Origin: Ginglymostoma cirratum
Lineage: Eukaryota
DNA: 64,000 bases
Direction: 5' to 3'
NCBI GenBank assembly: GCA_024137785.1
Contig: JAHRHZ010000021.1
Location: 21,588,632 to 21,652,631, forward strand
Shown: in pieces, positions 1,801-62,550 of the stretch
How positions within the stretch are numbered: position 1 is the first letter of the stretch
Layout of the letters: each line of letters starts with the position of its first letter
Translations under genes and position numbers: made by a program
The notes under the pieces: model-generated
Told to the model about the DNA's origin: nothing
Seen by the model: only the letters and a program-made list of their open reading frames with translations
Databases searched by the model: none

Positions 1801-3116
1801 ATTGCCATTTTGTTTTAGGTGATTTGAATGCTTGCGACACCTACCTTAAACAGAAGTTAGGCTACTTTTATATGCAAATTGGAATTGGACAATAGTGGTA
1901 GGATCCTGAATTTGAAATTCATGAACAAATAGGTGGAGGTTGGGCTGTACTTTCTCTGTCTAATTGTATCATATGTTGCTCAGCTTTCCTTATTGTGGCT
2001 GCTGAAGGCTGTTCCAAAGAAATAGCATGAGGAATTCTGTCTTTTTGCTTTTGCACGTAGGGGATGTGCTCTATCTGCTCCTACAAAAATAAATCTGGCT
2101 AACTGCTGTTGTTTTTTGTTAATGTGTGTTAAAATTTTTCGCAGCAAGTTATAATAAAAGATCATGTCAGTAAAGCATGTACAAACTTGAACAGAACCAT
2201 CTATTTGTTAATGTTAACATCTCCGCAGCAATGATTCAACAAATGGTGTATGACCAGATTTGAAGAGTCTCAATTATGTGTTGTTAGCTGATCTTTTGGA
2301 GCAAAACATAAAGCAAGAAATTACTATTGTCATGCATTTACAAAGCAAGTTCTACTGTTCTGTCTCACTTAGTCATGTATGGAAACCTATTGTTACAAAA
2401 TGCTCATTGGTGCTGCGCTGTATTACTGACGGGTAGGAGGATGTGGAATGACTACCATAGCATTGCTATGGATAAATTATTACAGATAACTACTCAAAGG
2501 TTAAAGCATTTTTATTCTCAGACCGTGGACATCACTTGCAATGCCAGCATCCAACCCAAGTCGGGTTTTATGTCGATGATAAACCATCCTCCAAGATATT
2601 GATGGGAGATCGAGAGATGGCAATATCATTGAAAGTCAACTGGAAGCAATTCAACTTTCTCGGAGATTGTCATTGCCTTATGCTTTTGTGGCATTATTAT
2701 AATTTGATCAAAGCTTGAATCTTAATAAGCTCTTGCAGCTATGGCCACATAAACTCCATTCACCATACATTGCACAATGAAGCAAAATGATGTGCAATCA
2801 TCAGTGAGCAGCTCCACTTCTGGCCTTTATTATTTGTTCTCAGGGTTTGGCCAGCGCGAGTTATGCCAGCATTTATTGCTCATCTCTAATTGTCCTGGAA
2901 AAGGTGGTGGTGAGCTTCCTGCTCAAACCACTGCAGTTCTTGGGGTATAGGGGCTTCCATGGTTCTGTTAGGAAGGAAATTCTAGGATTCTGTCCCAGTG
3001 AAGTTCTGGAGGAGAGAAAAGCATTGATGGAGCAGAACTAGGGTACTGCATGAAAAGTTCAGCAATTGCTTAGGGCTAAGATTCAAACAACCATAGTCAT
3101 CCTTGTGCTAGGTATG

Positions 3117-3225
3117 GTATTTTCTCATCAACCTTTTCAGAGATGTTATTACCCACTTCAAGAGGAGATGGCACCTCAGCACATGCCTCCTGGTTCAGCA
3201 GAAGGGACACTACTACTGTACGATA
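3117..3225 (-). mobile_element. Short (~110 bp) tRNA-derived SINE with 9-bp TSD
   Basis: Reverse complement matches the SINE at 17563-17679; flanked by direct repeat ctaggtatg (3108-3116 / 3226-3234). Confidence 0.65.
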
Positions 3226-14266: not shown

Positions 14267-15799
14267 TGGGAGTTCTGGGCAAGATTCTTACTAGGCACCA
14301 GTGAGTTCCTATTAAGAGGGATTATTGCTTTGTAATAATCTTACTAACTACATACCTCTCCTTGCATCCGAATATACCACCTGAGCAAACTAGACAGAGA
14401 ATTCTCAACATGGAAGTCAGAGCATGTACCTGGTGGCTTAAGCTTGTCATTGTCTGCAAACTGCCCCATTGTTGTCACCATGAAACAGCATCTCAGGGCA
14501 CAGTCTGTTTGCACCAGCTGCATGTGTCCATCAACGTTGGCATCCAATAATTGCCAACTCCCCAGATCATCATTACACTTCTCCAATCCAGGACACTTAG
14601 GAAGCTGAGATCTGCATTGCAGTCAGCACTGGCAACCAGCATTGAAAATCAGCTGCAAGGACACTTTGCCCACAGAGCAAGTAACCATCTTACAGTCTGG
14701 ACCAGGCTATATCTCAGGGCTGCTCTCTTAGCACTCATTCACTTAGCACCTATCTCAATGCTTGTTGTATCCACATCATGCCTTGCCTTGCCATGCCAGT
14801 TATCATACCGATGCTTCAGCCAGAACCTAAAGCTTATCAGTATTGCTGTCTTGACATGCTCTTTTGTATAGAAACACAGATGGGTTCCTTGTTATGCTTG
14901 TCAGTAGGGATCTATCCAAGGCTGGGGGAAGAGGCATATTGTTGTATGGCATACCAAGCCAACAATCTCACACCTACAGCATCTGCTAGGCGCATGTGTG
15001 GCAAAAACACTGCAAATTTATTTAGCCAAATGTCCTGGGACACTGTGATTGGACTATCATGGATGTTACAGCAGAACCTAAGGGGAGTAGGAGCTGGTGG
15101 TCATCCTCTCCCGGTAGCTGCAAAGTTGGCAGCTGCTTTGAGCTTCTATATGACTGGCTCCTTCCAGGGTGTGATGGATAACCTGTGTGCGACCTCTTAG
15201 TCATGCACCCACAAATGACCGGGATAGTGACCGATGCCTTGTGAGCAAAAGTCATCCTGATTCATTTTTAATTGCCAATGGTGAGGTCCCTCCTGCAGCC
15301 TGGGCTGTAGGACTAAGGAACATAGTGCAGTGCAGGGTGCAATCAACTGCACACAATCCACACTGACAGGGTCATGTCACAACACTGCAGAATTCATCCA
15401 TAGGAAAGAGTTCCATTTGATTAATAAGTAGGTGATCAGTGATCACCACTACCACTTGTATGTGCCCAGAACCCTGAACACGATCATGCCTCTTACACCC
15501 TGGAGCTGTCTTGTGTACTTAGAGCATCTGAGGATCCAAGGGCCTTACAAAGCTGGTTACTGGGGGACAAGGGCTACTCCTTCCCTGTCACCATAGCTCA
15601 TGACAGCATTGTGCAACCTCCTGGCTGATTCAGAACACAGATACAATGCTGCCTGTACTTCATCCTGGGCCATTTTAGAGCAGACTGTAAGGCTGTTGGA
15701 GATGTGGTTCCACAGCTTGTACCAGTCTGGGGGTGCCTCCAATATAATCCACACAGAGCTGCAACATGCGTTACTAGCCAGACCGGACCTGAATGACAG

Positions 15800-15958
15800 G
15801 AGCAAATTTCTGCAAGATGCTGGAATCTGTACTGAAAGCAAAAAGTGCTGGAGATTACGGCTCTGATGAAGTGTCATCTAGACTTGAGACATTAGCTTCC
15901 TTTCTCTCCATGGATGGTGCCTGACCCGCTGTGATCACCAGCATTTCTGTTTTCAGGA
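15800..15958 (+). mobile_element. Short Penelope pLTR-derived insertion with degenerate hammerhead motif
   Basis: CTGATGA (15863-15869)...GAGA followed by pLTR-like 3' end, preceded by an inverted pLTR piece; possible TSD tgaatgaca. Confidence 0.55.
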
Positions 15959-16468: not shown

Positions 16469-17562
16469 TTTGTCTTCATCATAAATACCAGCTTTTGCAC
16501 CTGCAGTTCTTTGTCTTAATTTAGTGTATAGATGGGAGGTAGCTAAGAACAAGTAAACCATGTGACCTTGTAGTTAAACAGCGACTAGGGTGGGAATGGG
16601 TTGAATGTGTGAGGGAGTGTCAGCTGTGAGCCTATGTGCCATGAGTAATGTGGCTTTGTGGCTGCTGTGCTGTATGTTGCTGGCAAGGGGCAATGCCAGA
16701 TTGCCAACTCTTACCTGGGTCTTTTGAAAATGGCACAGGCACAGGAGGGCTTGTATTTTGGTGGATATCTGGTGTGTGGTGAATTGTTCTGGGAACAGTG
16801 GTGGTAGGATGGGGCTGGATCCATACATGAGAGATAGTGGCAAGGGAGCAATTGGTAAGATTTGTAAGAGATCTCGCTTGGTGTCACAGAAAGAAGTCTA
16901 CTATGAAACTTAACAAAACTTGACACTTTGCCAAGAATAAACATAAAATGCAGCCCATGGTAACTAATTCAATGGTTTGCTCAGAAATAGAATTAGAAAG
17001 GTCTGGAAATACTCATCTGGAAGGTCTGGAAGTATCCTCTTAGTAACTTGCTTTTATTGTAGCCAGGTTCTTCTCTGAAGGTAGACTTTAAATTGGCCCT
17101 TCAGCTTTGAGAGTGCACCGAGTGCCACCATTAATTGGACAGAGGACTTCATATCAATTAAGGGAGTGCCGCAGGCAAAATTCCAGTTCAGTGAGTGTTT
17201 CTCCCTGGTTCTGCACTTCAAGATAATCCATGCTTCTGTTTGCTGCCTGGAGCTAAAATACTGATCAATATTTCAAAGATTAGTTCTGTTTTTCTCTTCC
17301 AAAAAGCTGCTCTGATTAACAGTATCCAAAGTGTAATCTCTTCATGTTGGCATATTCAGAATCATTTTTCCCCCTGCACTTTCATTACCTTTGTTTATTC
17401 ACGTTTGTGAAGAAACACTTAAACGAAATGAGTGGAATGAAATGTCATAATAAAACAAACCTCTTCAAGTCTCATATCATGGTGAATACTTTTGAGCTGC
17501 TGGCTGAAACTCGATTAAATCATTAAGAAACATTGACGATTGTCAGTATTAGATTTGCAGGT

Positions 17563-17679
17563 GGGATTCTTGAGGTGCAGTGATAGTGTCCCTACCTTTG
17601 AGCTAGCAGGCCTGGGTTCAAATCTCAACTGCTCTAGAGGTGTGTCATAATGTTTCTGAACAGGTTGATTAAAAATACC
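17563..17679 (+). mobile_element. Short tRNA-derived SINE with 14-bp TSD
   Basis: A-box-like ggtgcagtgatag and B box GGTTCAAATC; TSD ttagat(t/g)tgcaggt (17549-17562 / 17680-17693). Confidence 0.75.
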
Positions 17680-17855
17680 TTAGATGTGCAGGTCTCTTTA
17701 AGAGTCAAGTAGAGCAATACCTGAGTTTATTCAGTTCCCACAATTCTCTTTGGAGGTGGGTAAGAGCTATATTCTTTGAGTTCAAGTTCTGTGTGATAAT
17801 ATCTCTGAACGGGGTGATTAGAAAATATGAGGAGGAATGGACCGAGTTCTCAATT

Positions 17856-18048
17856 AGAGAGAGAGAGGTTGACACTACAGGGACTGGAGTGCTTTATTTT
17901 CTCTTCCAATTCCATTTTGATTGAGTCCATCCTTCAATTCCTTCCCCTCCCCTCTCCCCTATTCTGCGATTAATGCACTGCCCTTGGTGGGCAGTGCCAG
18001 TAATACAATTGATTGTTTATTTGGTTAGATGGAAGGGGAAAAAAAAAT
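17856..18048 (+). mobile_element. Tx1-clade LINE 3' end, unit A
   Basis: Translates RERLTLQGLECFIFSSNSILI (ORF2 C-terminus), then 3'UTR with stem-loop and A-tail. Confidence 0.7.
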
Positions 18049-18061
18049 GAGCTGGCTTCAT

Positions 18062-18319
18062 CCTGACTGTCTGCCTCTTTATCACAGTGATGTCCCTGTG
18101 TGAATAACCTTGGGGAGGGAGCACATGGTGTCCACCAGTATCCTTGAGAACTTCAGAGACCGGTGAGCACCGCAGGGTTGAAATGCATTCTCTCTCTTTT
18201 GAATCCATTTTAATTTGGTTCCCTCCCATTTTCCCAACCTTTCCATCACTTCTGTGTTGGTTTTTTTTTGTTTAATTAGTCAATTGTTAAACTGGTGGGG
18301 ATTTACTCAAAAAGAAAAT
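18062..18319 (+). mobile_element. Tx1-clade LINE 3' end, unit B
   Basis: Translates PDCLPLYHSDVPV*ITLGREHMVSTSILENFRDR*APQG; then 3'UTR and A-rich tail. Confidence 0.78.
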
Positions 18320-18335
18320 GAGTGGTCTCCATGTA

Positions 18336-18450
18336 GGGCTTTTGTGGTGCAATGGTAATGTCCCCTACCTCAGACAGCAGGCCCTAGTTCATGCCCCACC
18401 TGCTCTGGAAGTGTGTTATAACATGCCTGCTCTGGTTGTTCGAAAAAGAA
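18336..18450 (+). mobile_element. Short tRNA-derived SINE inside the Tx1 array
   Basis: Colinear with 17563-17679 (gggcttttgtggtgcaatggtaatgtcccctacc...ggttg..aaaaag). Confidence 0.65.
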
Positions 18451-18463
18451 GAGCTGGCTGAAT

Positions 18464-18602
18464 AATTTTGAATTAGTTCCTTCTCTTGTTTTCCCCACTT
18501 TTTAAAATGATTGTTGCACTGCACCGATGAGCAGGCTGTGTTACTTGCTGTTTGTTTAATTAGATAATTGAGTGGTTTGGTGGAGGGATTTTTAAATAGA
18601 AA
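18464..18602 (+). mobile_element. Tx1-clade LINE 3' end, unit C (stop-codon region and 3'UTR only)
   Basis: aattttgaattagttccttctcttgttttcccc aligns with the ORF end and 3'UTR start of units B and D. Confidence 0.6.
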
Positions 18603-18615
18603 GAGCTGGCTTCAT

Positions 18616-19123
18616 TATTCTGTGGTGCTGTGCAGAGTCCGTGGTCCATATATAAACTGGATGTGGGGCAGCTGTACCCTTGTTTTTAGTCATTTGAGAA
18701 ACCTGTAATTGTTCTTTTAGATGCATTCGAGCTTCATCCTCTTGATTTTTCGGACTCGATAACAACAAAGTGATGGTGAGTCATCAGCCTCCTTGTAGTC
18801 CTGCTCCTGGGCTGCCCTAAAGATACATCAACAGTTCCAGGCAGCAGGCTGGGAGCAACCTCTCTTCTGCAGTCACGTTCATTCTCTGGTGTCCTGGGAG
18901 AAGGAGCATGCAGTGTCCACCAGCATCCTCAAAGCTTTCAGAGAGAAGTGGGAGCTGGGGTGCATTCTTTTCTGTACATGCTCCATATTGATTCAGTCCT
19001 CTCCCTTGTTTTCCCTACCCTTTTGTGTTATGCGGTCATACAGCCCCTGGTATGCAGTGTTTGTAATTTTGTTTGTTAAGTGATTTGATAGATTGGTGGT
19101 AAATGCTTAAAATTTAAGAAAAA
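18616..19123 (+). mobile_element. Tx1-clade LINE 3' end, unit D (CCHC zinc-knuckle region to tail)
   Basis: Broken frames give FCG..ESVVHI...LLIF..LLVVLLLG...SWEKEHAVSTSILKAFREKW. Confidence 0.8.
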
Positions 19124-19136
19124 TAACTGGCTTCAT

Positions 19137-19459
19137 TAGGACTGCCTCGTGAGCCACCTTATGGGCTTGGTTGGAAGGGCAATCAATAGGTCTGGACAGC
19201 GACCCATGGAAGCGCTCCGAAATTCTGACCGTGTGCCTGTATTCTACAACTCTGTTCAAGCCCAGCTGTCCTTAGAGGGAGCTTTTAGAGGAAGAAGTGC
19301 ACCGTGGGGGCTAAGGTGCATTATTTATCCCACTGACTCCATCGTGATTTAGTCTCCTCCTGTATTTCTTCCCCTGTTTGACTTTTGTTGATACACAGTG
19401 CCTGATGGTTGTATTTGATGGACTGGACAATTTAGAGGTGAGTTTCCAAAAAAAAAAAC
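19137..19459 (+). mobile_element. Tx1-clade LINE 3' end, unit E
   Basis: ORF 19149-19352 LMGLVGRAINRSGQRPME...LSLEGAFRGRSAPWGLRCIIYPTDSIVI*, then 3'UTR and 11-A tail. Confidence 0.78.
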
Positions 19460-19867
19460 GACACTGGCTTTATCACCATGTAGGATTTTGTTTCTGGATG
19501 GAAGGTCTAGAATGGAACTGTGGAAGCCACTGTTCGTGTCAAGCTGAAGATTTACAGAAGAAACATTGCAAACTTTTGAACGTCTTTTGCTGCCTAATTT
19601 GCCCTAACAATATTAATCTCTTAAGCAATGCTAACTGCTCTGGTTCACGAAAAGTCATGAAGCAGACATTGTTCCATGGATTATTAATTATAGATATAAA
19701 ATACAAATCCAGTTGTAACTGTAAAATACACACAGCAATGGAATATCAATGTAATTTTACAAACATCAACGGCAGCTTATGACAGCAACAAATTTGGAAG
19801 AGTTACTGCATATAGTTTTCTTAGAATTGAATTTACTATCCATCCATCTGTAACACAGTATTTATTT

Positions 19868-20263
19868 CAGAGATAGTAGGAACTGCAGATGCTTGTCTCC
19901 GCCTCCCTAATCTGTCCTTCCTCCCACCTATCCCCTCCTCCTACCTCAAGTCCTACCCCATCTCCTACCTACTAACCTCATCCCGCTCCCTCTGCCCTCC
20001 CTGGACTGACCTATCCCCTCCCTAACTCCCCACCTACACTCACCTTTACTGGCTCCATCCCCACCTCTTTGACCTGTCTATCTCCTCTCCACCTATCCTC
20101 TCCTCTATCCACCTTCTATCCGCCTCCCCCCTCTCCCTATTTATTTCAGAATCCCCTTCCCCTCCCCCATTTCTGATGAAGGGTCTAGGCCCGCAACATC
20201 AGCTTTCCTGCTCTTCTGATGCTGCTTGGCCTGCTGTGTTCATCCAGCTCTACACCTTGTTAT
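19868..20263 (+). mobile_element. Penelope solo pLTR with short inverted 5' piece
   Basis: Pyrimidine-rich pLTR, CTGATGA-agggtctaggccc-GCAA motif, end matching 4202-4250; TSD cacag(t/c)atttattt (19854-19867 / 20264-20277). Confidence 0.85.
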
Positions 20264-20974
20264 CACAGCATTTATTTGTTGTATAACTCAAGACATATTA
20301 TCTCATGCATGTTCAGATCGTCCTAATCTAGTTATACACTGTTTCCATCTCTTTTAATAAAACAACATATTCAGACTGAATGAAGAATTTTCATTGAACA
20401 TGGCATAATTAACATGGCATGATAGGGAGAAGTGAGCTTGCAGGAAAGCTGGAAGTAACTGGGAACTTTATTGTATGTTGTTACACATCTGTTGGAAGCA
20501 AGGTACAAAACAAATTGTTTTCTGCCATATACTTCAATTGAGTTAATTGGTTAAAACAAAAGTCCCTTTTCTGGTTTGCTGAATTACTTGCCTTGTACAT
20601 TTAACATTTGATCTATATTGGATTTAGTTTATTTATTACAGTAAAGATCTTAAAATATGAAATCTTCTCTTTTAATTATTTCTGTTGATCGTCAGGAAAT
20701 TAATCTCTTTTAGACTAAGTTATTGGTGGTTAGAGCTATTTTACTAGCTGGCACTTACCTTGAAGCATTCTATAGCCCATACAGTACCTTTGAGCCATAC
20801 TCATGTTTGTAATGCAGGAAATGCAATAAGCACATTTGCACACAACATGTGACCTCAACGTGATAATGAACAGAAGATCTGTTATTGTAAAGTTGAATGT
20901 GGGATAAATATTGACCGGTACAGCAGGATAAATTGCCTGCTTCTTTTTTAAAAAAATCTGCAATTTTTGCCTTT

Positions 20975-26393: not shown

Positions 26394-27101
26394 GGTATCA
26401 CAATACACAGGTTGTGTACAGTACAACTGATGTGTTCAAAGAAAAGATTACAAGTGTAATCATTCTTTTACTGCTGTTTGAGATATCTCAGCAGTCTGAG
26501 CCTTAAAAACCTATGTTTCTTGACCAAATATTCATTCTCAGGGAAACAGCGGAACTTTCTCTGTTGGATCACTATCTCAGAAATAACGAGGACAAACGTA
26601 ATCCTGATTTCAGGATGGGGTCAAATCTGGGGCAGCCCCAGATATGGGGAAATTCCTGAGTGACCCCAGAAGTGCAGCCTGATAAATGTTGCAAATCCCA
26701 AAGATGTCTACCAGAAACAGCTGCTTAGTTAAATCTGCACATCCCTGGGATATGTTCATCAGAAGTTTTAACTTTAGTGATGGCATTTATGTGTTCTTTA
26801 TCAATTAATTCACAATTATAATTTTACCTGGATCAGCTATAGAAGCATGCATCATCTAAAGGATATGTGTGTCAAGGCCTTTTGACAATATTTCAGATCA
26901 TAAAAATAACTAGTGTTGGCAGTTCACAAAGGTTACAGTGTTTGGTTAAGTCATTAAATGCATCTATTTACATTTAAAAAATGTGGTTGATTTGTTCGCC
27001 ATACCATGTGACCTCAAACAGCAGTAAAGGAATGGCTATGCTTATAATCTTTTCTTTGAACACATCAGTTGTACCGTACACAACCTGTATATTGTGATAC
27101 C
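26394..27101. repeat. 89-bp inverted repeat (26394-26482 / 27013-27101), possible MITE or fold-back
   Basis: Arms align without gaps, 8 mismatches in 89 bp. Confidence 0.85.
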
Positions 27102-27890: not shown

Positions 27891-28329
27891 TCACTCCTGT
27901 ATGGTCTGTGTACTGAGGGACACATCTTTCTGCAGTACACGATGATATATGAGACATACATTCACTGCCAGATCTGGCATTTGTCTGGAAGTTTGATTAT
28001 TTCAAAATTCTGGAAATCCGAAGACATAACAGAATATAAAGAAAAATCACGAAGACAACAAGCTTTTTGCCCAGCAGGGTCTTATGTAGAGGGAAAATTG
28101 GGAAAACTCCCTGATGGTGTTTGGAATGTGTGATGATTGAGTAAAACCAAAGAAAAGGCTCATAGATAATGCAATGCTGAATAGTATTAAAAGATGTATT
28201 GGGAATTCTGCAAATGCACGATTGGACAAAAGGTTCAAAGGAATTCCATGATTTTGTGAATACAATTAGATTGTTGTGTGCGTGTGCGCTGAAGTTTCCA
28301 AAATAGGTATTTCTCCCTAATTGTAAAGT

Positions 28330-29040
28330 GCCTTGATTTTTCCAAACTTCAGCACTGTTGTTGCACCTGTAACAAAGTTGTTGAAGAAAGGCAGAACATT
28401 TGAATGGATGCTAGAGTGTCAAAGTGCCTTTGAAAACTTGAAAACTGTGCTGACAACCACATTAGTTTTGGATGTGCTGAATTATGCAAAGCCATTTAAA
28501 CTGGCTGTTGATGCCAGTGACATTGGCGTGTGGCTGTTTTGATGAGATGGGCACTGCATGGGCTGTCAGTTATTTTTCAAAGAAACTGACCGCATGTAAC
28601 CAAAGATATTCAATGGGTGAAGGAGCAATAGAGGTTGTGGTGGCTCTACATCCTTTCAAAATATACATTAGCAACAATATATAAGAAACTGTTAATTATA
28701 TGAACCACAGTCCTTTGATTTTCTCAGAAAAAATTCGGGACAAGAGCTTATGATTGTTTTGGTGGAGCTTAATTCTCTAACCCTATAATTTGAAAGACGC
28801 TCATGCGCCTAGAAAGGAAAATATTTTCGCAAACTCTTTATTACGAGCACATTTGAAGGACATTGAGTGATGTGGTGTCCTTGGATTTGTGTATGATATG
28901 GTTGCTGTGTAACTCATTGTATGTTGAATGTCTCTGTTATTACTGTTAGGGTGACATAGGAGTAGTGTTAAGATAATTTTCATGAATAAGAAGAATGCTT
29001 CTTAGTGATGAATTTTCATTCTTCTTTGGAGCCAGTGTGA
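28330..29040 (+). mobile_element. Ty3/Gypsy LTR retrotransposon remnant (RT connection + RNase H)
   Basis: FPNFSTVVAPVTKLLKK..FEW..ECQSAFENLK..PFKLAVDASDIGV, AVSYFSKKL..NQRYS, ENIFANSL. Confidence 0.85.
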
Positions 29041-35101: not shown

Positions 35102-35715
35102 AGTCAAATACCTTGAAATTTATTTACAACGCTAGCTGTTTACAGGGCTACAATATCACAGGCTTACACACATAGTCTGGGTTCAGACTATGTGTGTAAG
35201 CCTGTGATNNNNNNNNNNNNNNNNNNNNNNNNNNNNNNNNNNNNNNNNNNNNNNNNNNNNNNNNNNNNNNNNNNNNNNNNNNNNNNNNNNNNNNNNNNNN
35301 NNNNNNNNNNNNNNNNNNNNNNNNNNNNNNNNNNNNNNNNNNNNNNNNNNNNNNNNNNNNNNNNNNNNNNNNNNNNNNNNNNNNNNNNNNNNNNNNNNNN
35401 NNNNNNNNNNNNNNNNNNNNNNNNNNNNNNNNNNNNNNNNNNNNNNNNNNNNNNNNNNNNNNNNNNNNNNNNNNNNNNNNNNNNNNNNNNNNNNNNNNNN
35501 NNNNNNNNNNNNNNNNNNNNNNNNNNNNNNNNNNNNNNNNNNNNNNNNNNNNNNNNNNNNNNNNNNNNNNNNNNNNNNNNNNNNNNNNNNNNNNNNNNNN
35601 NNNNNNNNATCACAGGCTTACACACATAGTCTGAACCCAGACTATGTGTGTAAGCCTGTGATATTGTAGCCCTGTAAACAGCTAGCGTTGTAAATAAATT
35701 TCAAGGTATTTGACT
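35102..35715. repeat. Perfect inverted repeat around a 400-N gap; probably one ~160-bp palindrome (78-bp arms, 4-nt loop)
   Basis: 35102-35208 is the exact reverse complement of 35609-35715; each side contains the 54-bp hairpin centre. Confidence 0.9.
35209..35608. other. Assembly gap (400 N)
   Basis: Directly visible. Confidence 1.
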
Positions 35716-38967: not shown

Positions 38968-39548
38968 AGGTTTTAGCAAAGATTTGTAGCTGGGGTTGTG
39001 GGTGAGGTTATTGACTTGCTTGCGAGCTGGCTTGTTTTCGTTCATATGTTTCATCGCCATGCTAGGTAACATCATCAGTGCAGCCTCCAATGAGGCGATG
39101 TTGTTCTACTCCGTTTGGAATTTATACTGTCTGGTCCGTTGTGGTGAGTACTGTCATTTCCGGTTTTGATCTGTATGGGTTTATATATGGGGTCCAATTC
39201 TATATGTTTGTTGATTGCATTATGGGTTGCGAATCATGCCTCTAGGAATTCACGTGCATGTCTATGTTTGGCTTGGGTTACTATGGTTACGTTGTTCCAG
39301 TTAAACTGATGGCCTTCATTGTCTGAGTGTTCTGATATTAAGAAAAGTTTGTTGTGTTGTTTTTCTGCTAGTTGATGTTCCTGTATTCTGATGGCTAGTT
39401 TCCTCTTGTCCAGCCGAAGTAATGCTTGTGGCAGTCGTTGCATGGTATTTTGTAAACTATGTTGATTCTGGGAGTGGGGCCTTTAATCCTTGTGAATGTT
39501 TGTTGTTGAATGGCTGTGGGCTTGTGTGCCACCATGATTCCTAGTGGT
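38968..39548 (-). mobile_element. Penelope-like element 3' part (second family; GIY-YIG + pLTR with hammerhead core at 39041-39084)
   Basis: RKLAIRIQEHQLA...HQFNWNNVTIVTQAKHRHAREFLEA; minus strand CTGATGA-tgttacctagcatggcgat-GAAA. Confidence 0.8.
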
Positions 39549-50165: not shown

Positions 50166-53100
50166 GTCTGTACACTTGGTTGGCCATTTTGAACAGTGTC
50201 AGAATAAGAACAATAATTGGCCGAGTGGGATGCCACTGATCACCCAGTTCGTCCTTTCTTGCTTGCCTTTTGTGAGGAGAATTCTGTGTGAGGGTACAAC
50301 GTCATAGAGTATATGTTCAATCAAAGATATCTATAACATGACAATTTTACTTTAAACTTAAAGATACGGAATGGGTGGAAGATGTGGAACACAGCTGGTA
50401 CTTTGTACAGAGCTGGAGCATGAGGTAAACCATTTGCCTCTATGATTAGTTAATGGCCCTACCCCTATATCTTTCCTCACAGTTTAATAAGGCAATGTTT
50501 TGACTCCTTTGTTTCCCACACCACATGATGTCATGTATCCACAAATCCATGCATCCTGACATCCTCCTACTTTTTGGCTCTTCTTGATTCTTCCTGTTCA
50601 ATGCTCCTACCCTGAAACTTTCCTGTGAGTGAACACGTGAAAGAGAGATGTCAAGTAGGAGAAGGCCAGAAAAGCAACAATCAAGGACAGAGAGGATACT
50701 TCGTCATTGAGTGTGGGGAAGAAGGGAGCTTAAAGTCCCTCTGAGAGGCCAATCCTAAAGGGCTGTTTGCATGTTTATTTGCATGAGAACACAACGGGAT
50801 ATAAATTATCTTTAATAGACTACCTTAATATAAATTGTTCCAGACTGTTGAGAGGACAAATGACGTTGCAAAAATTCCAGATATTACATATGAATCTGTA
50901 CCCAAAAATGCTTCTGGTTGAAAATTTGTATTTGAGACAAATATCAATGATATAGTAATCTTTACAATATATTCATGTAAGTTGAGGACATATATGTGAC
51001 AACACCAGAAATAGTGCATTAGTCAATTGAATTACTTGTTGATGTCATTGGATTTGAAGTTGATGCTATATTTATTCTACTGTAAAGCCACATATTTTAC
51101 TTTTTTGTCCAAGTGTGTTTCAAAAAAGTTTTCAATAGAACAACCTTACTTTTATAAAGTGTCTTTATCAGATTCTCACAAAAGTGCTTTACAGCCACTG
51201 GAAGTACTTTTGCAGTCAATATTGGTATGTAGGGAATTCCAAGTACTCACTTTTCACTTGGCAAGATTTACAAACAGAAGACCAGATCCTGATTGCAAAA
51301 TTGGACTTTAGGATGGTAAAGGTTCTTAAAGTTCTGAAATGGAGTTTGCGACATGTGAACACACTTCCTGCCAAATTGTATTTCAAATAAAACTTTCCTA
51401 ATTTCAATTGGTCTCTTCATATCCTATGAATTTTCAGTCTAATTAGTTTGTCAGATACTCTTTAAAAATGCTTCTTACATTACATTCACTTCTTGCCGTA
51501 AAAACTGATCTGCACGAGCGTGACATCAGTAATGGAAATTAGAAATTACAAATTACAAATATTTGAAAGAATGTAGCGGTTATAATTAAGCATGAAGAGC
51601 TCAAATTGAAGAACGTTGATGATGAATCCTGGAAGAGGATAAATTAGCATGCATGATTGATGGTGAGGGTTAAAGTTAGGGTTTGGTGAGTGGACATGAA
51701 GTTGGATATAGAGCTTGGAAACAGGAGAAACATCAAGGTCTACCATTTCTCTCCCTATCCCACAGGAAAAGAGGGCTGCTGGACTAGTGGTCTGCCCCAC
51801 TGTAGTTCCAACAGTATTACCATGGAAAGGAATAATCCTGGACTTGGATTTGCCCATGAAGAATAATCATCTAAATGAGGTATCAGATGGTGATAGATGT
51901 TAAAGGATCCACAGTGTGCTTAGAAGACGAGGGCCAAAACGTTAGTACAATCTCTATTCATGCTCAAAATGTAGTTCTATTGTGAAGGTAGTTGGATTAA
52001 GTCAACAGGTCATTGTAAGAACATGGATTGAACAAGAATGTAACTGTTTTCAAATAAATAAGAGCCTGTGCTGTTAATGAAATATTGTCAGCATATTAGA
52101 GAACTTCCTACGTAAACTAAAGCTCTCGCAATGCCTGGAGCTGCCAGTAACCAACTCATTGTTATAGGAAATGATCATCACAGAAAGTTCCTGCTACAAC
52201 AAAGACAGGCAACTGGTTGCAAGCTTTTTCCATTAAAATAATTCATGTTTATGTTCATTCTTACTAAACACTAACAGATTTATAGTTTCCAAAGTGATGA
52301 AATAATTATAGCACTGAAGTTCTTCGGATCCCTTTGATCAAAGATCTGGCTATTTATCCAGACAGACATTTCTCAGAGATACTTTCCTTTGAACTATTCC
52401 TGACTTTACAACGCTGCTCAGGTGAAAATTTCCAGTAAAATATTTTTTATAAATACCAATCGTTCATTATGTCTTTTGTAAATAGGGATTTATGCAAATG
52501 AAAGCTTTCTATTTTTGTACAAAGAAAAGATGTTATTCTGGAAGATCAAAGAAAATTCATTATAAGGCCTTCCTTTTCTTAATGATGTATAATGGTATTC
52601 ATGGAGAAAGGATTAATTTTCGAGAGCAAAAACAAAACATTGATTAATAAAGCATAACATTGCATTAAAAATTGACGTGTCATTACAATCCTGCGAATTG
52701 TAATAAAAAAATCTCCTTGCATTATACAACATACATGTTTCATTTCACATTATGAGGTACATAAATGTGATGATTTGACATTAAGAAGTTGAACAACCTT
52801 GCATTGAAAACTAAAATATCTAGCAGAGCTAATTATCCTAATAGAGTCTGCCTAATTCAGTTAATGTCCTCTTGAAATGTATAAAAGATAATAAGCTATA
52901 CACTTACTGTTTCTTTTCAAAAAGCACATTACATACCACCAGGCGCCTGAGATGGATCATTGCAAATTCATCACCTGTGTTAATATTATTTACTATGGTT
53001 ATTATCCTGTGTAATGATAATTGAATTTGAAGACTGCTCATGTAACTACCTTTAAAGCTATTTCTGTAAAATTCCCAGCATCATCTGAAATGTGTCCAAT

Positions 53101-55013: not shown

Positions 55014-55084
55014 AAAGAATATCATTAGCAGCTATATTTTAAGTCAATGTTTGACTTAAAATATAGCTGCTAATGATATTCTTT
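55014..55084. repeat. Perfect hairpin/palindrome, 34-bp arms, 3-nt loop
   Basis: aaagaatatcattagcagctatattttaagtcaa-tgt-ttgacttaaaatatagctgctaatgatattcttt. Confidence 0.95.
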
Positions 55085-56499
55085 TGTGTAGGTCTGTATG
55101 GTGACAAATATTCTCATTATGGGCCCTGATAATCTTGCATGATTAATATCTGCCTGATAATCAAAGGGAAACTATTTAGTGAATATTAGAGGGGTGAAAG
55201 TCTGCTGTTTCCACTCAAGTCTGGTGTCAGACAACAGTGTTTCACAGTTCGAAATACCTATGCTACAGTCATGATTTAGATTCTAAATAAGAGCACTCAT
55301 CTTTCAATGCCTTGAGCCTACATTTGTAGCAATTCTTTTCCAGATCTAGGTTTCGAGATGATATTGTTATATTACCAAATGATATCTACAATTCCCCTGT
55401 ATATATTAAATACTTGCATTGTGTCATACAGACTCAGCAGAAACCAAACCAGTCGTCCTTTGTGAGCACCTGTCATAGTCACCAATAATCAGCTCAGCAG
55501 ATGGTCATTTTACCACCCTTGGGTATTACAGTTTGGTTATGGGTCCAAGCTCAACCAGCCACATGACACATTCAAGAGACTCAGACCTTGCCCTCTTCAC
55601 ACTGAAATTTGAATTGTTCTACTATCTTTATCCCCCAGCAAAGGAAACCTACCCAGTGGAACTTATTGTTAACTTTACACCTCAGCTAAGAGAGATTTCA
55701 GGTCAATAAAGGAACTTCACATTACTCGCTACAAATTGGATTCTTTAGTAAAATGCTCTCCCCTACAGGAGTTTTCAATCTGACAAAATTGTCTCAGGTG
55801 GAAAATATCTATAGTTCAAGGTAAAGTCAATGTAGACCAACATGGCCAGGGGGCTGCTCTCTTGTTACAGACAGACAACTGGTAGTGGTTTAGCTTGAAG
55901 GCCACCAAATCTCAGTTGAGCGGAGAGGTTGAAAAGGAGAATCCTTTATGGAAGCAGAAATACTATAGTAGAAACAGTTTTTCGAAGTTAACCAATATTA
56001 GCTCCTAATGTAAGAATTCAGATATTGCTATGTGTGTGGATTATTCAGGAATTAAGTTTGAGACTACATCTTTTTCATACTTATAAACATTTACTAAAAT
56101 AACTGATTCTGCAACACATTATAATTATGTCATAGAGTATATGCTCTATAAAAGATACCTATAACATGACAATTTTACTTTAAATTTAACTTCAAACTTC
56201 AAATCCACCTAAAGAAAAATTAGACATTTAAACAAATATGTCAAGACAACATGCTTAGAATGCAGTATAATTTCTTAGTAAGATATTGGGCTAAGTATTA
56301 ATTTCTTTTGACTAAGTGCCACTTGCATCAATTTTTTGGAAGGTTGATTTCTGTGAGATCTGGCGAAACATCTTGCTGTATCTTAGCAAATTTGTCTCAT
56401 TAACTATCTTCTGTCCCTACAGCATCTGTCATGTTTGATTTGAGCATCATTTACTGAGGGTTGTTCCCAGAACAATTTGCCAAATTGACCAGCATTTTA

Positions 56500-60391: not shown

Positions 60392-62550
60392 CAGGGTTCC
60401 CTCTAATTTGTCTGGTGCCTTGGTGGAACTCGGAGTAATCTGAATGGCGCATTGCAACCAATAAACAGAAAACTTACAGCATTTTTTCTACTGTATGTCT
60501 ATTAACAGTTAAAAAGCATGTGCCTACATTATTATACAGATGTTCTACCTGTTAAAATAAGCAGATGCCCAAGGTATTTGTTTATTGGTGGCACTATGTA
60601 CACCATGCATAATACACAGCCAAAAGACAACACTCAATTTCTTCACTCCATTGTTGGCAATGGATGCCTAATGACTGTATACCGCATCATGTTGATATTT
60701 GGCTGCGTGAAATGTGCAACTTAATTTGCATCAAGTTCTCCAAGTGATCTATTTCTAATCTATTTCCTGATGTATACTTAGTCAAGTTCATGAGCTAAAT
60801 CTACATGCAGTCAACATTTGATGCCTGATAGTTGGCACCAATGTCCAGAAGAATAAATATTTCTTGAAACTGGTCATTTTGTAAGTCATCATTCATCAAA
60901 TGACTGAATATCTGAATGGAATCTGTCTTGACTTTATCACAATTATAAATTTGAATTCGGAGTATTATTTGCGTATCTTTGTGGCCACAGTTTTGATATA
61001 GTTTGGTAAAGTGTGAAATATTTTGAAATCAGTTGTATTTTCCAAACTCATAATTAGTTGTCTTTGTGATTGCAGACTGATCAAATGCATGTCACTCCAT
61101 TCATTTACTTTCTGGAAATCGACTATCTGGGTGGTCACATGGCAACTGAGTAAACGGAAGGATTGTCAACATCACTGTCTAGAGCAACCAGACCCTTCTC
61201 AAAATCCTCACTCCAATAAACATGTTCACCTAGAAACTGAGTCTTCACTTATTATTCTTGCCTTTGCAAAATGAATAACCTCAATTGTTGTCAAATTGCT
61301 TCTTTGAAAGAATGTGTCCAGCAATGCCTAGTTCACTTAGAAATTCCTACAGAGCTGTTGATACAACGTGATAGTGTGGCTGTCTGATTGTTTTTCAGGC
61401 AATATCTGTAGATTGGTTCATTGCACTTATTCGCATGCTCCGTGTGCACCCGGTCAAGATGTTATAGTTTTGCAATAGTGCACATACTGCAAAGTGACAG
61501 CCACCTCTTTCAGTCAAAGGTCAAAATGCCACTGTATCACACTCAGCAACTTTGACAACTTCTTCAAAACAACTTTTCTTCATAGGTGACTTGGTGAACA
61601 TTGTATACGCTGTTCTTAGAAGAGTTTCAATAGCATGTATAATCGAGACCTGTTTCCAAGCACCATCTATTCCAAGATCTTCTCTGTGAACAGTGCAACA
61701 CTGTTCTGACAAATGATTGATTTCACGTTGCACCACAGCCACTATTCCATTTTTCTTTCTGAGCATAACAAGAATTCTGTCTGATGTAAACATCGCCGTC
61801 TTCTGTAAATCAAGGTAACTGTCAGCATAAAATTGCTTGATTGCTGCCACATTGGAGATAATGTTGCTAGCAGTCTGTTTCAAAATTCCTGCAGAAGACA
61901 GCCTTGTAAGTAAGTTCAGATCGTGGTCAAAAGTTGTTGTACAAACTGAACATTTTTTGTACGGAAATGTCTGTACTTTTGTCCGCTATCACCATACGAA
62001 AATGCAATTTGCGCAATTTATCTAGGAACTGGTCCTGCATGACAAATTCCACAAATTCAAAATTGTAATTCTTGCTGTGTCAGCTCTCAGCAATTGCTGT
62101 GTACTTCGCTACATGGACATGAATCTCTTGCACAGATAGCATGGACATATTCATTTTCATTGCAGGAATGACATTATCAATGAGAACTTTCACCATCTCG
62201 GGGTGGTCCTTCTGAGCTCTGGATATTCCACTCTCAGTTCACATTCTCCTGGTATTTTGACAGGCATTCGTATAATTCTACCTTTGTTGTGGTTTCAGAA
62301 CCCAATTACAGAATCCACTTTTTGGTTCAATTGCTGCTATGGGTTGTTCAGTTTCTATCTGTACCACTTTATTACAGTGTTGAGCCTGCCACCTACATTT
62401 GCTTTAAAGCAAATGTGATGTCGACAGTTTCACAGTGAGTGAAAATCTTACTGATTCGTACCTTCGGTTTCTACGTTGAAGATGGCATTTTGGCTTTAAT
62501 GGTCTCAGAAGGCCATCTTTTTTGAAATGCATGCAGGATTTATTTCCTAA
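60392..62550 (-). mobile_element. hAT-superfamily transposase pseudogene (ZNF862-like type)
   Basis: ORF 61521-61883 FTSD..VML.KKNG...HLSEQCCTVHREDLG (CxxH motif region)...IETLLRTAYTMF; decayed dimerisation-domain-like segment ~60720-60860; TIR-like cagggttccctctaattt at 60392; many stops and frameshifts. Confidence 0.75.

What the first reader, a model, noticed from the sequence alone, without database searches (positions are those of the whole stretch)
17856..19473. Stack of five independent Tx1 retrotransposon insertions at one self-regenerating target motif (GAGCTGGCTTCAT)
Seen: five same-strand LINE 3' ends lie head-to-tail. Each is truncated at a different 5' point (A at RER, B at PDCLP, C at the stop, D at the FCG zinc knuckle, E at DCLV), and they are clearly diverged from one another. 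Each A-tract is followed by the same motif, and the next unit starts within a few bases of it: gagctggcttcat 18049-18061, gagtggtctccat 18320-18332, gagctggctgaat 18451-18463, gagctggcttcat 18603-18615, taactggcttcat 19124-19136, gacactggctttat 19460-19473. Known: the Tx1 clade includes sequence-specific families (Tx1L, Keno in U2 snRNA, Dewa, Kibi, Koshi), and target-primed reverse transcription duplicates the target. Inference: the motif is the TSD of a sequence-specific Tx1 lineage, so each insertion recreates the site and the locus accumulates copies over long periods. I do not recognise the motif as rRNA, tRNA, snRNA or a microsatellite, so it may be an undescribed target. A uni-stranded stack like this could also act as a piRNA source.
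Basis: partly seen in the sequence, partly recalled or inferred. Interest (0 to 1): 0.82.

Follow-up and report, generated by a model that had tools for sequence, protein, structure and literature searches.

The report
Retrotransposons stacked at one shark site
Five decayed copies of a jumping gene and one short passenger element landed one after another at the same short DNA sequence, copying it each time; this behaviour is known from crocodilians, but the sequence itself matches no target we could find described.

Summary
Five same-strand, 5'-truncated ends of a Tx1-clade LINE (17856-19459) lie head to tail, each followed by a copy of a 13-nt motif. No other Tx1 end was found in the 64-kb window. 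Two corrections: a near full-length tRNA-like SINE (18336-18450) sits between motif copies 2 and 3, so there are six inserts; and no motif copy is recognisable 5' of unit A. One new point favours a target-site duplication (TSD) over an element-borne motif: the copy in front of the SINE runs on into sequence that otherwise occurs only in the unique right flank. That also suggests growth at the 3'-most copy. Best reading: a sequence-preferring Tx1 endonuclease re-used one site, regenerating it by TSD. This kind of system is published (crocodilian Tx1-Mar/SINEU-3 tandem insertions sandwiching a TSD). The target matched no Rfam family, microsatellite or paper searched, so it may be undescribed. 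Family-wide specificity is untested because no other genomic copy could be fetched. Long-term accumulation and a piRNA role are not shown. Verdict: new member of a known kind.

The parts
17856..18048 (+). Unit A: last ~21 codons of Tx1 ORF2, 3' UTR, A-tract 18039-18047; no motif copy recognisable at its 5' end
18049..18061 (+). Motif copy M1 (13 of 13; used as reference)
18062..18319 (+). Unit B: Tx1 3' end starting at PDCLP, flush with M1; 2 stops and a frameshift
18320..18335 (+). Motif copy M2, best read as a longer duplication with short deletions that runs about 9 nt into the sequence found after M6
18336..18450 (+).
18451..18463 (+). Motif copy M3 (11 of 13)
18464..18602 (+). Unit C: Tx1 stop-codon region and 3' UTR only
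18603..18615 (+). Motif copy M4 (13 of 13)
18616..19123 (+). Unit D: longest Tx1 end, from inside the C-terminal zinc knuckle; 4 stops and several frameshifts
19124..19136 (+). Motif copy M5 (11 of 13); shares A at motif position 3 with M6
19137..19459 (+). Unit E: Tx1 end with a 70-codon open frame and a ~10-codon in-frame deletion; A-tract
19460..19473 (+). Motif copy M6 (9 of 13), the copy that keeps the original downstream flank
19474..19491 (+). Unique right flank; matches the sequence at and after M2 (17 of 20 columns)
17562..17679 (+). Same-family SINE S1 with its own unrelated 13-nt TSD (17549-17561 and 17680-17692, 12 of 13 identical)
17785..17827 (+). 5'-truncated same-family SINE S4, ending 28 nt before unit A
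3113..3221 (-). Same-family SINE S3 far from the stack, with an unrelated TSD (control)

Best explanation
An old insertion hot spot in a shark genome. A Tx1-clade LINE whose endonuclease prefers this site nicked the bottom strand at the left edge of the motif (or in the A-run just before it), reverse-transcribed its RNA there, and cut the top strand at the right edge of the motif. Each event left a 5'-truncated copy between two copies of the site, so the site survived and was hit again: five times with Tx1 RNA, once with a tRNA-like SINE RNA. At least the SINE, and probably unit E, went into the 3'-most copy, the one still joined to the original downstream flank, so recognition probably needs motif plus downstream bases. 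Shown: Tx1 identity, architecture, flush 5' junctions, the longer duplication at M2. Inferred: endonuclease specificity, order of events, that Tx1 enzymes moved the SINE.
For: Four Tx1 units (B, C, D, E) start within 0-3 nt of the motif's 3' end although truncated at four different points. A non-LINE insert carries the motif on both sides, while 2 other copies of that SINE have unrelated TSDs, so the motif is not part of the SINE. 18326-18345 matches the unique flank 19473-19491 in 17 of 20 columns; it was the only non-self segment of 14,120 scanned to reach that score. No other Tx1 3' end in the window (nhmmer next best E 0.039; tblastn) although it holds 105 TTAAAA sites and 51 runs of 6 or more A. 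Relatives: 26 hits, of which 24 align over the ORF2 C-terminus; a 622-aa relative is 41% identical over 617 columns to Xenopus Tx1L ORF2 (E 1.5e-138) against E about 1e-6 to human L1 ORF2. Tx1L endonuclease is sequence-specific in vitro (PMC1950540, passages), and tandem insertions sandwiching a TSD are reported for SINEU-3 and Tx1-Mar (PMC4494074).
Against: One locus only; no outside copy was seen, so family-wide specificity is untested. No motif copy 5' of unit A (1 of 6 inserts lacks its left copy). The left edge of the TSD cannot be placed because A-rich tail and target merge. About half of the M2-to-flank match lies in the SINE head and may be microhomology or chance. The M5/M6 shared base is one nucleotide in copies about 15% decayed. 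Only 1 of 4 SINE copies is at the motif. No multicopy host for the target was found: both flanks are unique in the window. No endonuclease sequence survives in the stack.
Confidence: 0.74

Rival explanations
1. Passive hitch-hiking: the enzyme has only an L1-like liking for T-tract/A-run junctions, re-cuts at the A-run, and an arbitrary neighbouring 13-mer is copied along in a TSD of about 23 nt, as in tandem Alu insertions.
For: A-runs before the six copies are all 8-10 nt and four share an interrupted AAGAA-like pattern, including the one after the SINE, whose other copies do not end that way. Tandem Alu insertions exist (title only, in a reference list; mechanism recalled).
Against: 105 TTAAAA sites and 51 A-runs in the window hold no Tx1 end. 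The right edge is the same within about 1 nt in 4 of 5 events. Recognition of the previous element's own tail is disfavoured because at least one of C, D, E inserted behind the SINE tail.
Confidence: 0.13
2. The motif is element-borne: part of the RNA's 3' end or of read-through transcript, so it appears after every tail without being a genomic target.
For: Every Tx1 tail is followed by the motif and unit A has none in front.
Against: The motif also follows the SINE; other copies of the SINE lack it. M2 continues into the unique right flank. It would not explain why six inserts abut at one spot.
Confidence: 0.07
3. Local tandem duplication of one unit followed by deletions and decay.
For: A clade of B, D and E is not rejected (p-AU 0.209). 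Differences are spread over all codon positions (52, 49, 71 in 138 codon pairs), so much is neutral decay.
Against: Each deletion would have to end at the motif's 3' edge. The units group together in 0 of 200 bootstrap trees and each is closer to outside proteins than to the other units (weak, since decay alone gives the same pattern). No tandem repeat found here. Does not explain the SINE.
Confidence: 0.04
4. One event with template jumps between RNAs, or an assembly artefact.
For: Same strand, short pieces.
Against: Template jumps would not place target sequence between pieces. Units only 56-76% alike cannot be collapsed or duplicated reads. The only N gap is 16 kb away.
Confidence: 0.02

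Closest known systems
Crocodilian Tx1-Mar LINEs and SINEU-3 in Mariner-N4_AMi (Kojima 2015, PMC4494074)
   Same: Tx1-clade LINE and a SINE share a target; tandem insertions sandwich a TSD and are read as sequential; old, about 85-90% to consensus.
   Different: There the SINE heads come from U1/U2 snRNA and the target lies in a known Mariner; here the SINE is tRNA-like, the host of the target is unidentified, and the stack holds six inserts. The published 16-nt TSD resembles this site only weakly (5-14% of 8,834 background segments score as well).
Xenopus Tx1L (YTX2_XENLA), targeting Tx1D
   Same: Closest named full-length protein (41% to relative P0029); sequence-specific APE endonuclease (PMC1950540 passages).
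Keno (U2), Kibi/Koshi (microsatellites), Dewa (tRNA spacer), Mutsu (5S)
   Same: Target-specific elements of fish named in PMC4494074 and PMC3706591.
   Different: No U2, 5S, tRNA or microsatellite at this site.
Tandem Utopia copies in U2 genes; tandem Dada-U1 copies separated by a TSD
   Same: Repeated insertion at a site that survives insertion (passages of PMC4640811 and PMC3706591).
   Different: Different enzymes (restriction-like endonuclease; DDE transposase) and snRNA targets.

Membership tests
Tx1 clade LINE | ORF2 closer to Tx1L than to L1 | tested here: met
   Indirect: B, D, E match P0029 (E 1e-7 to 6e-5); P0029 is 41% identical to Tx1L ORF2, E about 1e-6 to L1. Direct window-only profile against Tx1L is weak (3.8 bits); the relatives' profile gives 118 bits.
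Tx1 clade LINE | C-terminal CCHC zinc knuckle | tested here: met
   Unit D is truncated after the first Cys and keeps the second Cys, the His and the last Cys; relatives hit Pfam zf-RVT below the cut-off.
Tx1 clade LINE | A-rich 3' end with variable 5' truncation | tested here: met
   5 of 5 units.
Tx1 clade LINE | Placement by RT phylogeny; APE endonuclease | not testable with these tools
   The units hold neither domain; no named Keno, Koshi or Tx1-Mar sequences were retrieved.
Sequence-specific Tx1 family | Same target beside more than 20% of family copies (criterion of PMC4494074) | not testable with these tools
   No shark DNA collection; searches confirmed 0 of 15 and 0 of 34 pattern matches.
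Sequence-specific Tx1 family | Target duplicated on both sides of each insert | tested here: met
   5 of 6 inserts (B, SINE, C, D, E); unit A lacks the left copy.
Keno / Mutsu / Dewa | Target in U2, 5S or a tRNA array | tested here: not met
   Rfam 0 hits at gathering score in 64 kb; best E 1.3 in 16500-20500; ARAGORN 0. Short decayed fragments could be missed.
Kibi / Koshi | Target in TC or TTC microsatellite | tested here: not met
   No tandem repeat at the junctions.
Tx1-Mar / SINEU | Target in Mariner-N4_AMi | tested here: inconclusive
   Weak same-strand likeness to the published TSD, p about 0.05-0.14; no convincing terminal inverted repeats around the stack.
Tx1-Mar / SINEU | SINE head from U1 or U2 snRNA | tested here: not met
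   No Rfam snRNA hit; A-box and B-box-like stretches by eye against recalled consensus.
Tx1-Mar / SINEU | SINE shares the LINE's target preference | tested here: inconclusive
   1 of 4 copies at the motif; 3 of 4 within 900 bp on the same strand (simulated P 0.0006, post hoc).
piRNA source locus | Gonadal 24-32 nt RNAs map here | not testable with these tools
   No small-RNA data.

The most novel reading that the evidence does not exclude
A shark Tx1 lineage, with a tRNA-derived partner SINE, has an undescribed target (the motif plus downstream bases) that is not a multicopy RNA gene or microsatellite, and builds polar arrays across the genome that grow at the 3'-most copy and so record the order of subfamily activity like strata.
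Probability: 0.45. Interest if true: 0.62.

Novelty: new member of a known kind. Interest (0 to 1): 0.42.

Why it matters
Target-specific LINE endonucleases are few in vertebrates and are of interest for safe-harbour gene insertion; a new target would add one specificity to compare with Tx1L and Tx1-Mar. Ordered stacks give relative ages of Tx1 and SINE subfamilies and near homoplasy-free markers for shark phylogeny, with the caveat that a site hit six times is prone to parallel insertion. The locus itself is a fossil; nothing here points to a host function.

Tried and rejected
Word-seeded homologue search with the unit E peptide: 0 of 20 candidates; ESM Atlas and Pfam gave nothing for it. Outside genomic copies: none in the bacterial/archaeal genomes or plasmids. 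Unit A continuing upstream through SINEs S1 and S4, or the right flank being another Tx1 piece: scores 26.5 and 23.7, within the range of 30 shuffles. Right flank as a decayed SINE head or Penelope-like end: 31-281 of 500 shuffles scored as well in 8 comparisons. Target as a deleted piece of the Penelope-like repeat at 39024, which holds both halves 18 nt apart: 2 of 40 simulated windows scored as well; not accepted. Ferritin as target, prompted by a Heptranchias gene model that joins a Tx1 end to ferritin: best tblastn E 0.54. Motif-like stretches at 17496, 17753 and 17828 as the missing left copy: too weak or not adjacent to unit A (read; not scored separately). Host gene: 32 stop-free frames from selected parts of 1-38100 and 17 others gave only one retroelement domain; a full six-frame scan was not completed, so intronic or intergenic position is open.

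Full report
1. Observation. The motif by itself is not over-represented: 27 matches at up to 3 mismatches against 20.6 +/- 4.5 in shuffles. The context is non-random: 7 of the 155 sites with 9 or more matches follow an A-rich run, and 6 of the 7 are this stack; 1.1% of all positions have such a run, so about 1.8 would be expected. Units A-E align to each other; 10 of 10 pairs beat all 200 shuffles, at 69-76% identity over 92-221 columns.

2. What the units are. A profile of four window peptides found 26 proteins at E up to 0.001 among 1.84 billion. Two are repetitive false hits (P0014, P0026) and were dropped; 24 share the ORF2 C-terminus. Of 20 proteins looked up, 12 are whale shark gene predictions, 1 is a Heptranchias model and 7 are unnamed, so the window is probably from a shark (inference). 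A profile of the hits gave one longer relative, P0029. It has RT and zf-RVT matches below the Pfam cut-offs, is 41% identical over 617 columns to Xenopus Tx1L ORF2, and matches human L1 ORF2 only at E about 1e-6. B, D and E match P0029 directly and by frameshift-aware alignment far above shuffles; A is marginal and C nearly all UTR. The link to Tx1L is indirect: the window-only profile scores 3.8 bits on it.

3. Corrections. Between motif 2 and motif 3 lies a 115-nt element that recurs at 17562-17679, 17785-17827 and 3113-3221 (minus strand). It has A-box and B-box-like stretches (by eye, recalled consensus), so I call it a tRNA-like SINE; ARAGORN and Rfam do not score it. Two other copies have their own unrelated TSDs. 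So the stack has six inserts, and the motif flanks a non-LINE insert as well. The left flank is not Tx1 and shows no clear motif copy before unit A; target truncation at the first insertion or later deletion would explain this (inference; PMC4494074 reports both duplication and truncation for SINEU-2).

4. Target or passenger. B, C, D and E begin within 0-3 nt of the motif's end though cut at four different points. The stretch 18326-18345, at and after motif 2, matches the unique flank after motif 6 (19473-19491) in 17 of 20 columns; among 14,120 window segments it was the only non-self one to reach that score, one other came within a point. About half of this match is in the SINE head, which fits microhomology at the 5' junction but weakens it as a count of duplicated bases. 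The simplest reading is that the SINE insertion duplicated motif plus about 9 nt of genomic flank. Then the motif is genomic, and C, D and E were not yet present. Motifs 5 and 6 share an A at position 3, which fits E going last into the 3'-most copy; this is one base and weak. The site is strongly preferred locally: no other Tx1 end was found by nhmmer (next best E 0.039; the model was built from the five units) or tblastn (7 outside hits at E under 0.05, five to non-Tx1 tails of gene models and two at E 0.03-0.04; none under E 0.5), against 105 TTAAAA sites and 51 A-runs.

5. Age and independence. Codon-mapped identity is 56-60% in 5 of 6 pairs (the sixth has 4 codons), with differences at codon positions 1, 2, 3 of 52, 49 and 71 in 138 codon pairs that are not independent. 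This suggests heavy decay plus some divergence between source elements. The three longer SINE copies are 67-73% alike. On a 73-column tree of 29 rows the three units never grouped in 200 bootstrap trees, but a clade was not rejected (p-AU 0.209; 1 of 26 inner branches well supported). The time span of accumulation is therefore open.

6. What the target is. Rfam: 0 hits at gathering score in the window, best E 1.3 near the stack. No tandem repeat here. Both flanks are unique within the window. Leads to a Penelope-like repeat, a decayed SINE head, ferritin and the crocodilian TSD did not pass their controls or stayed borderline. By analogy with Tx1L and Tx1-Mar the likeliest host is a decayed transposon (inference, untested).

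7. Mechanism. Target-primed reverse transcription by an APE-type Tx1 enzyme with fixed cuts either side of the motif, regenerating the site each time (confidence 0.74). The main rival is passive copying beside an A-run hot spot (0.13); four junctions share an interrupted A-run, so the true TSD may include it. Three of 4 SINE copies lie within 900 bp on the stack's strand (simulated P 0.0006, post hoc), which hints that the region attracts the SINE too, but only 1 of 4 uses the motif.

8. What is known. PMC4494074 (main text read, parts 1-4 of 5; supplements not available, and its target figures could bear on novelty) describes Tx1-Mar and SINEU sharing a target in a Mariner element, with tandem copies sandwiching a TSD. 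Passages only were read of PMC4640811, PMC3706591, PMC1950540 (supplement listed, not read), PMC3747384, PMC5499810, PMC6719617, PMC5203782, PMC8455134 (states that whale shark has Tx1 repeats), PMC8869645 and PMC3783187 (a reference title only). PMC3272032 gave no passage. Christensen 2000 was not held; Kojima and Fujiwara 2004 was not read. A search for the motif found 7 papers whose titles and abstract starts are unrelated to transposons (listing only). Searches listed no paper on a shark Tx1 target. The library lacks most subscription papers and Repbase Reports, and Repbase and Dfam could not be searched, so 'undescribed' is provisional.

9. Unchecked. Other genomic copies, orthologous loci, host gene context and small RNAs.

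10. Verdict. Real and well explained by a known mechanism; the possible news is the target sequence, the tRNA-like partner SINE and the hint of polar growth. New member of a known kind, interest 0.42.

Noticed in passing
window 55014-55084: Near-perfect palindrome, about 35-bp stem with a 3-nt loop; perhaps a tiny MITE-like remnant.
   Followed up: no
window 26394-27101: 89-bp inverted repeats, 91% alike, about 530 bp apart; probably a non-autonomous DNA transposon. TSD not determined.
   Followed up: partly
window 35102-35715: A 400-N gap (35209-35608) flanked by 107-bp exact inverted copies; likely an assembly artefact.
   Followed up: no
window 39024-39066: A Penelope-like repeat (family name recalled) holds both halves of the extended target 18 nt apart; 2 of 40 simulated windows scored as well.
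   Followed up: yes
window 14685-15800: Decayed frames that look like a Harbinger transposase by eye (recalled); no Pfam hit for the one frame tested.
   Followed up: partly
window 28327-28539: RT_RNaseH_2 domain, E 1.2e-8: an LTR retrotransposon fragment.
   Followed up: no
window 61521-61985: 153-codon minus-strand frame that looks like a hAT-type transposase piece by eye (recalled); no significant Pfam hit.
   Followed up: partly
window 50301-50361 and 56129-56189: 61-bp direct repeat, 92% alike, 5.8 kb apart; unexplained.
   Followed up: no
window 17496-17511: Motif-like stretch with a 3-nt insertion, 345 nt before unit A; the sequence between is not Tx1.
   Followed up: partly
protein P0023 (XP_067834083.1, Heptranchias perlo): A gene model named ferritin heavy chain B-like begins with a Tx1 ORF2 C-terminus: probably a mis-prediction beside a Tx1 insertion.
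   Followed up: partly
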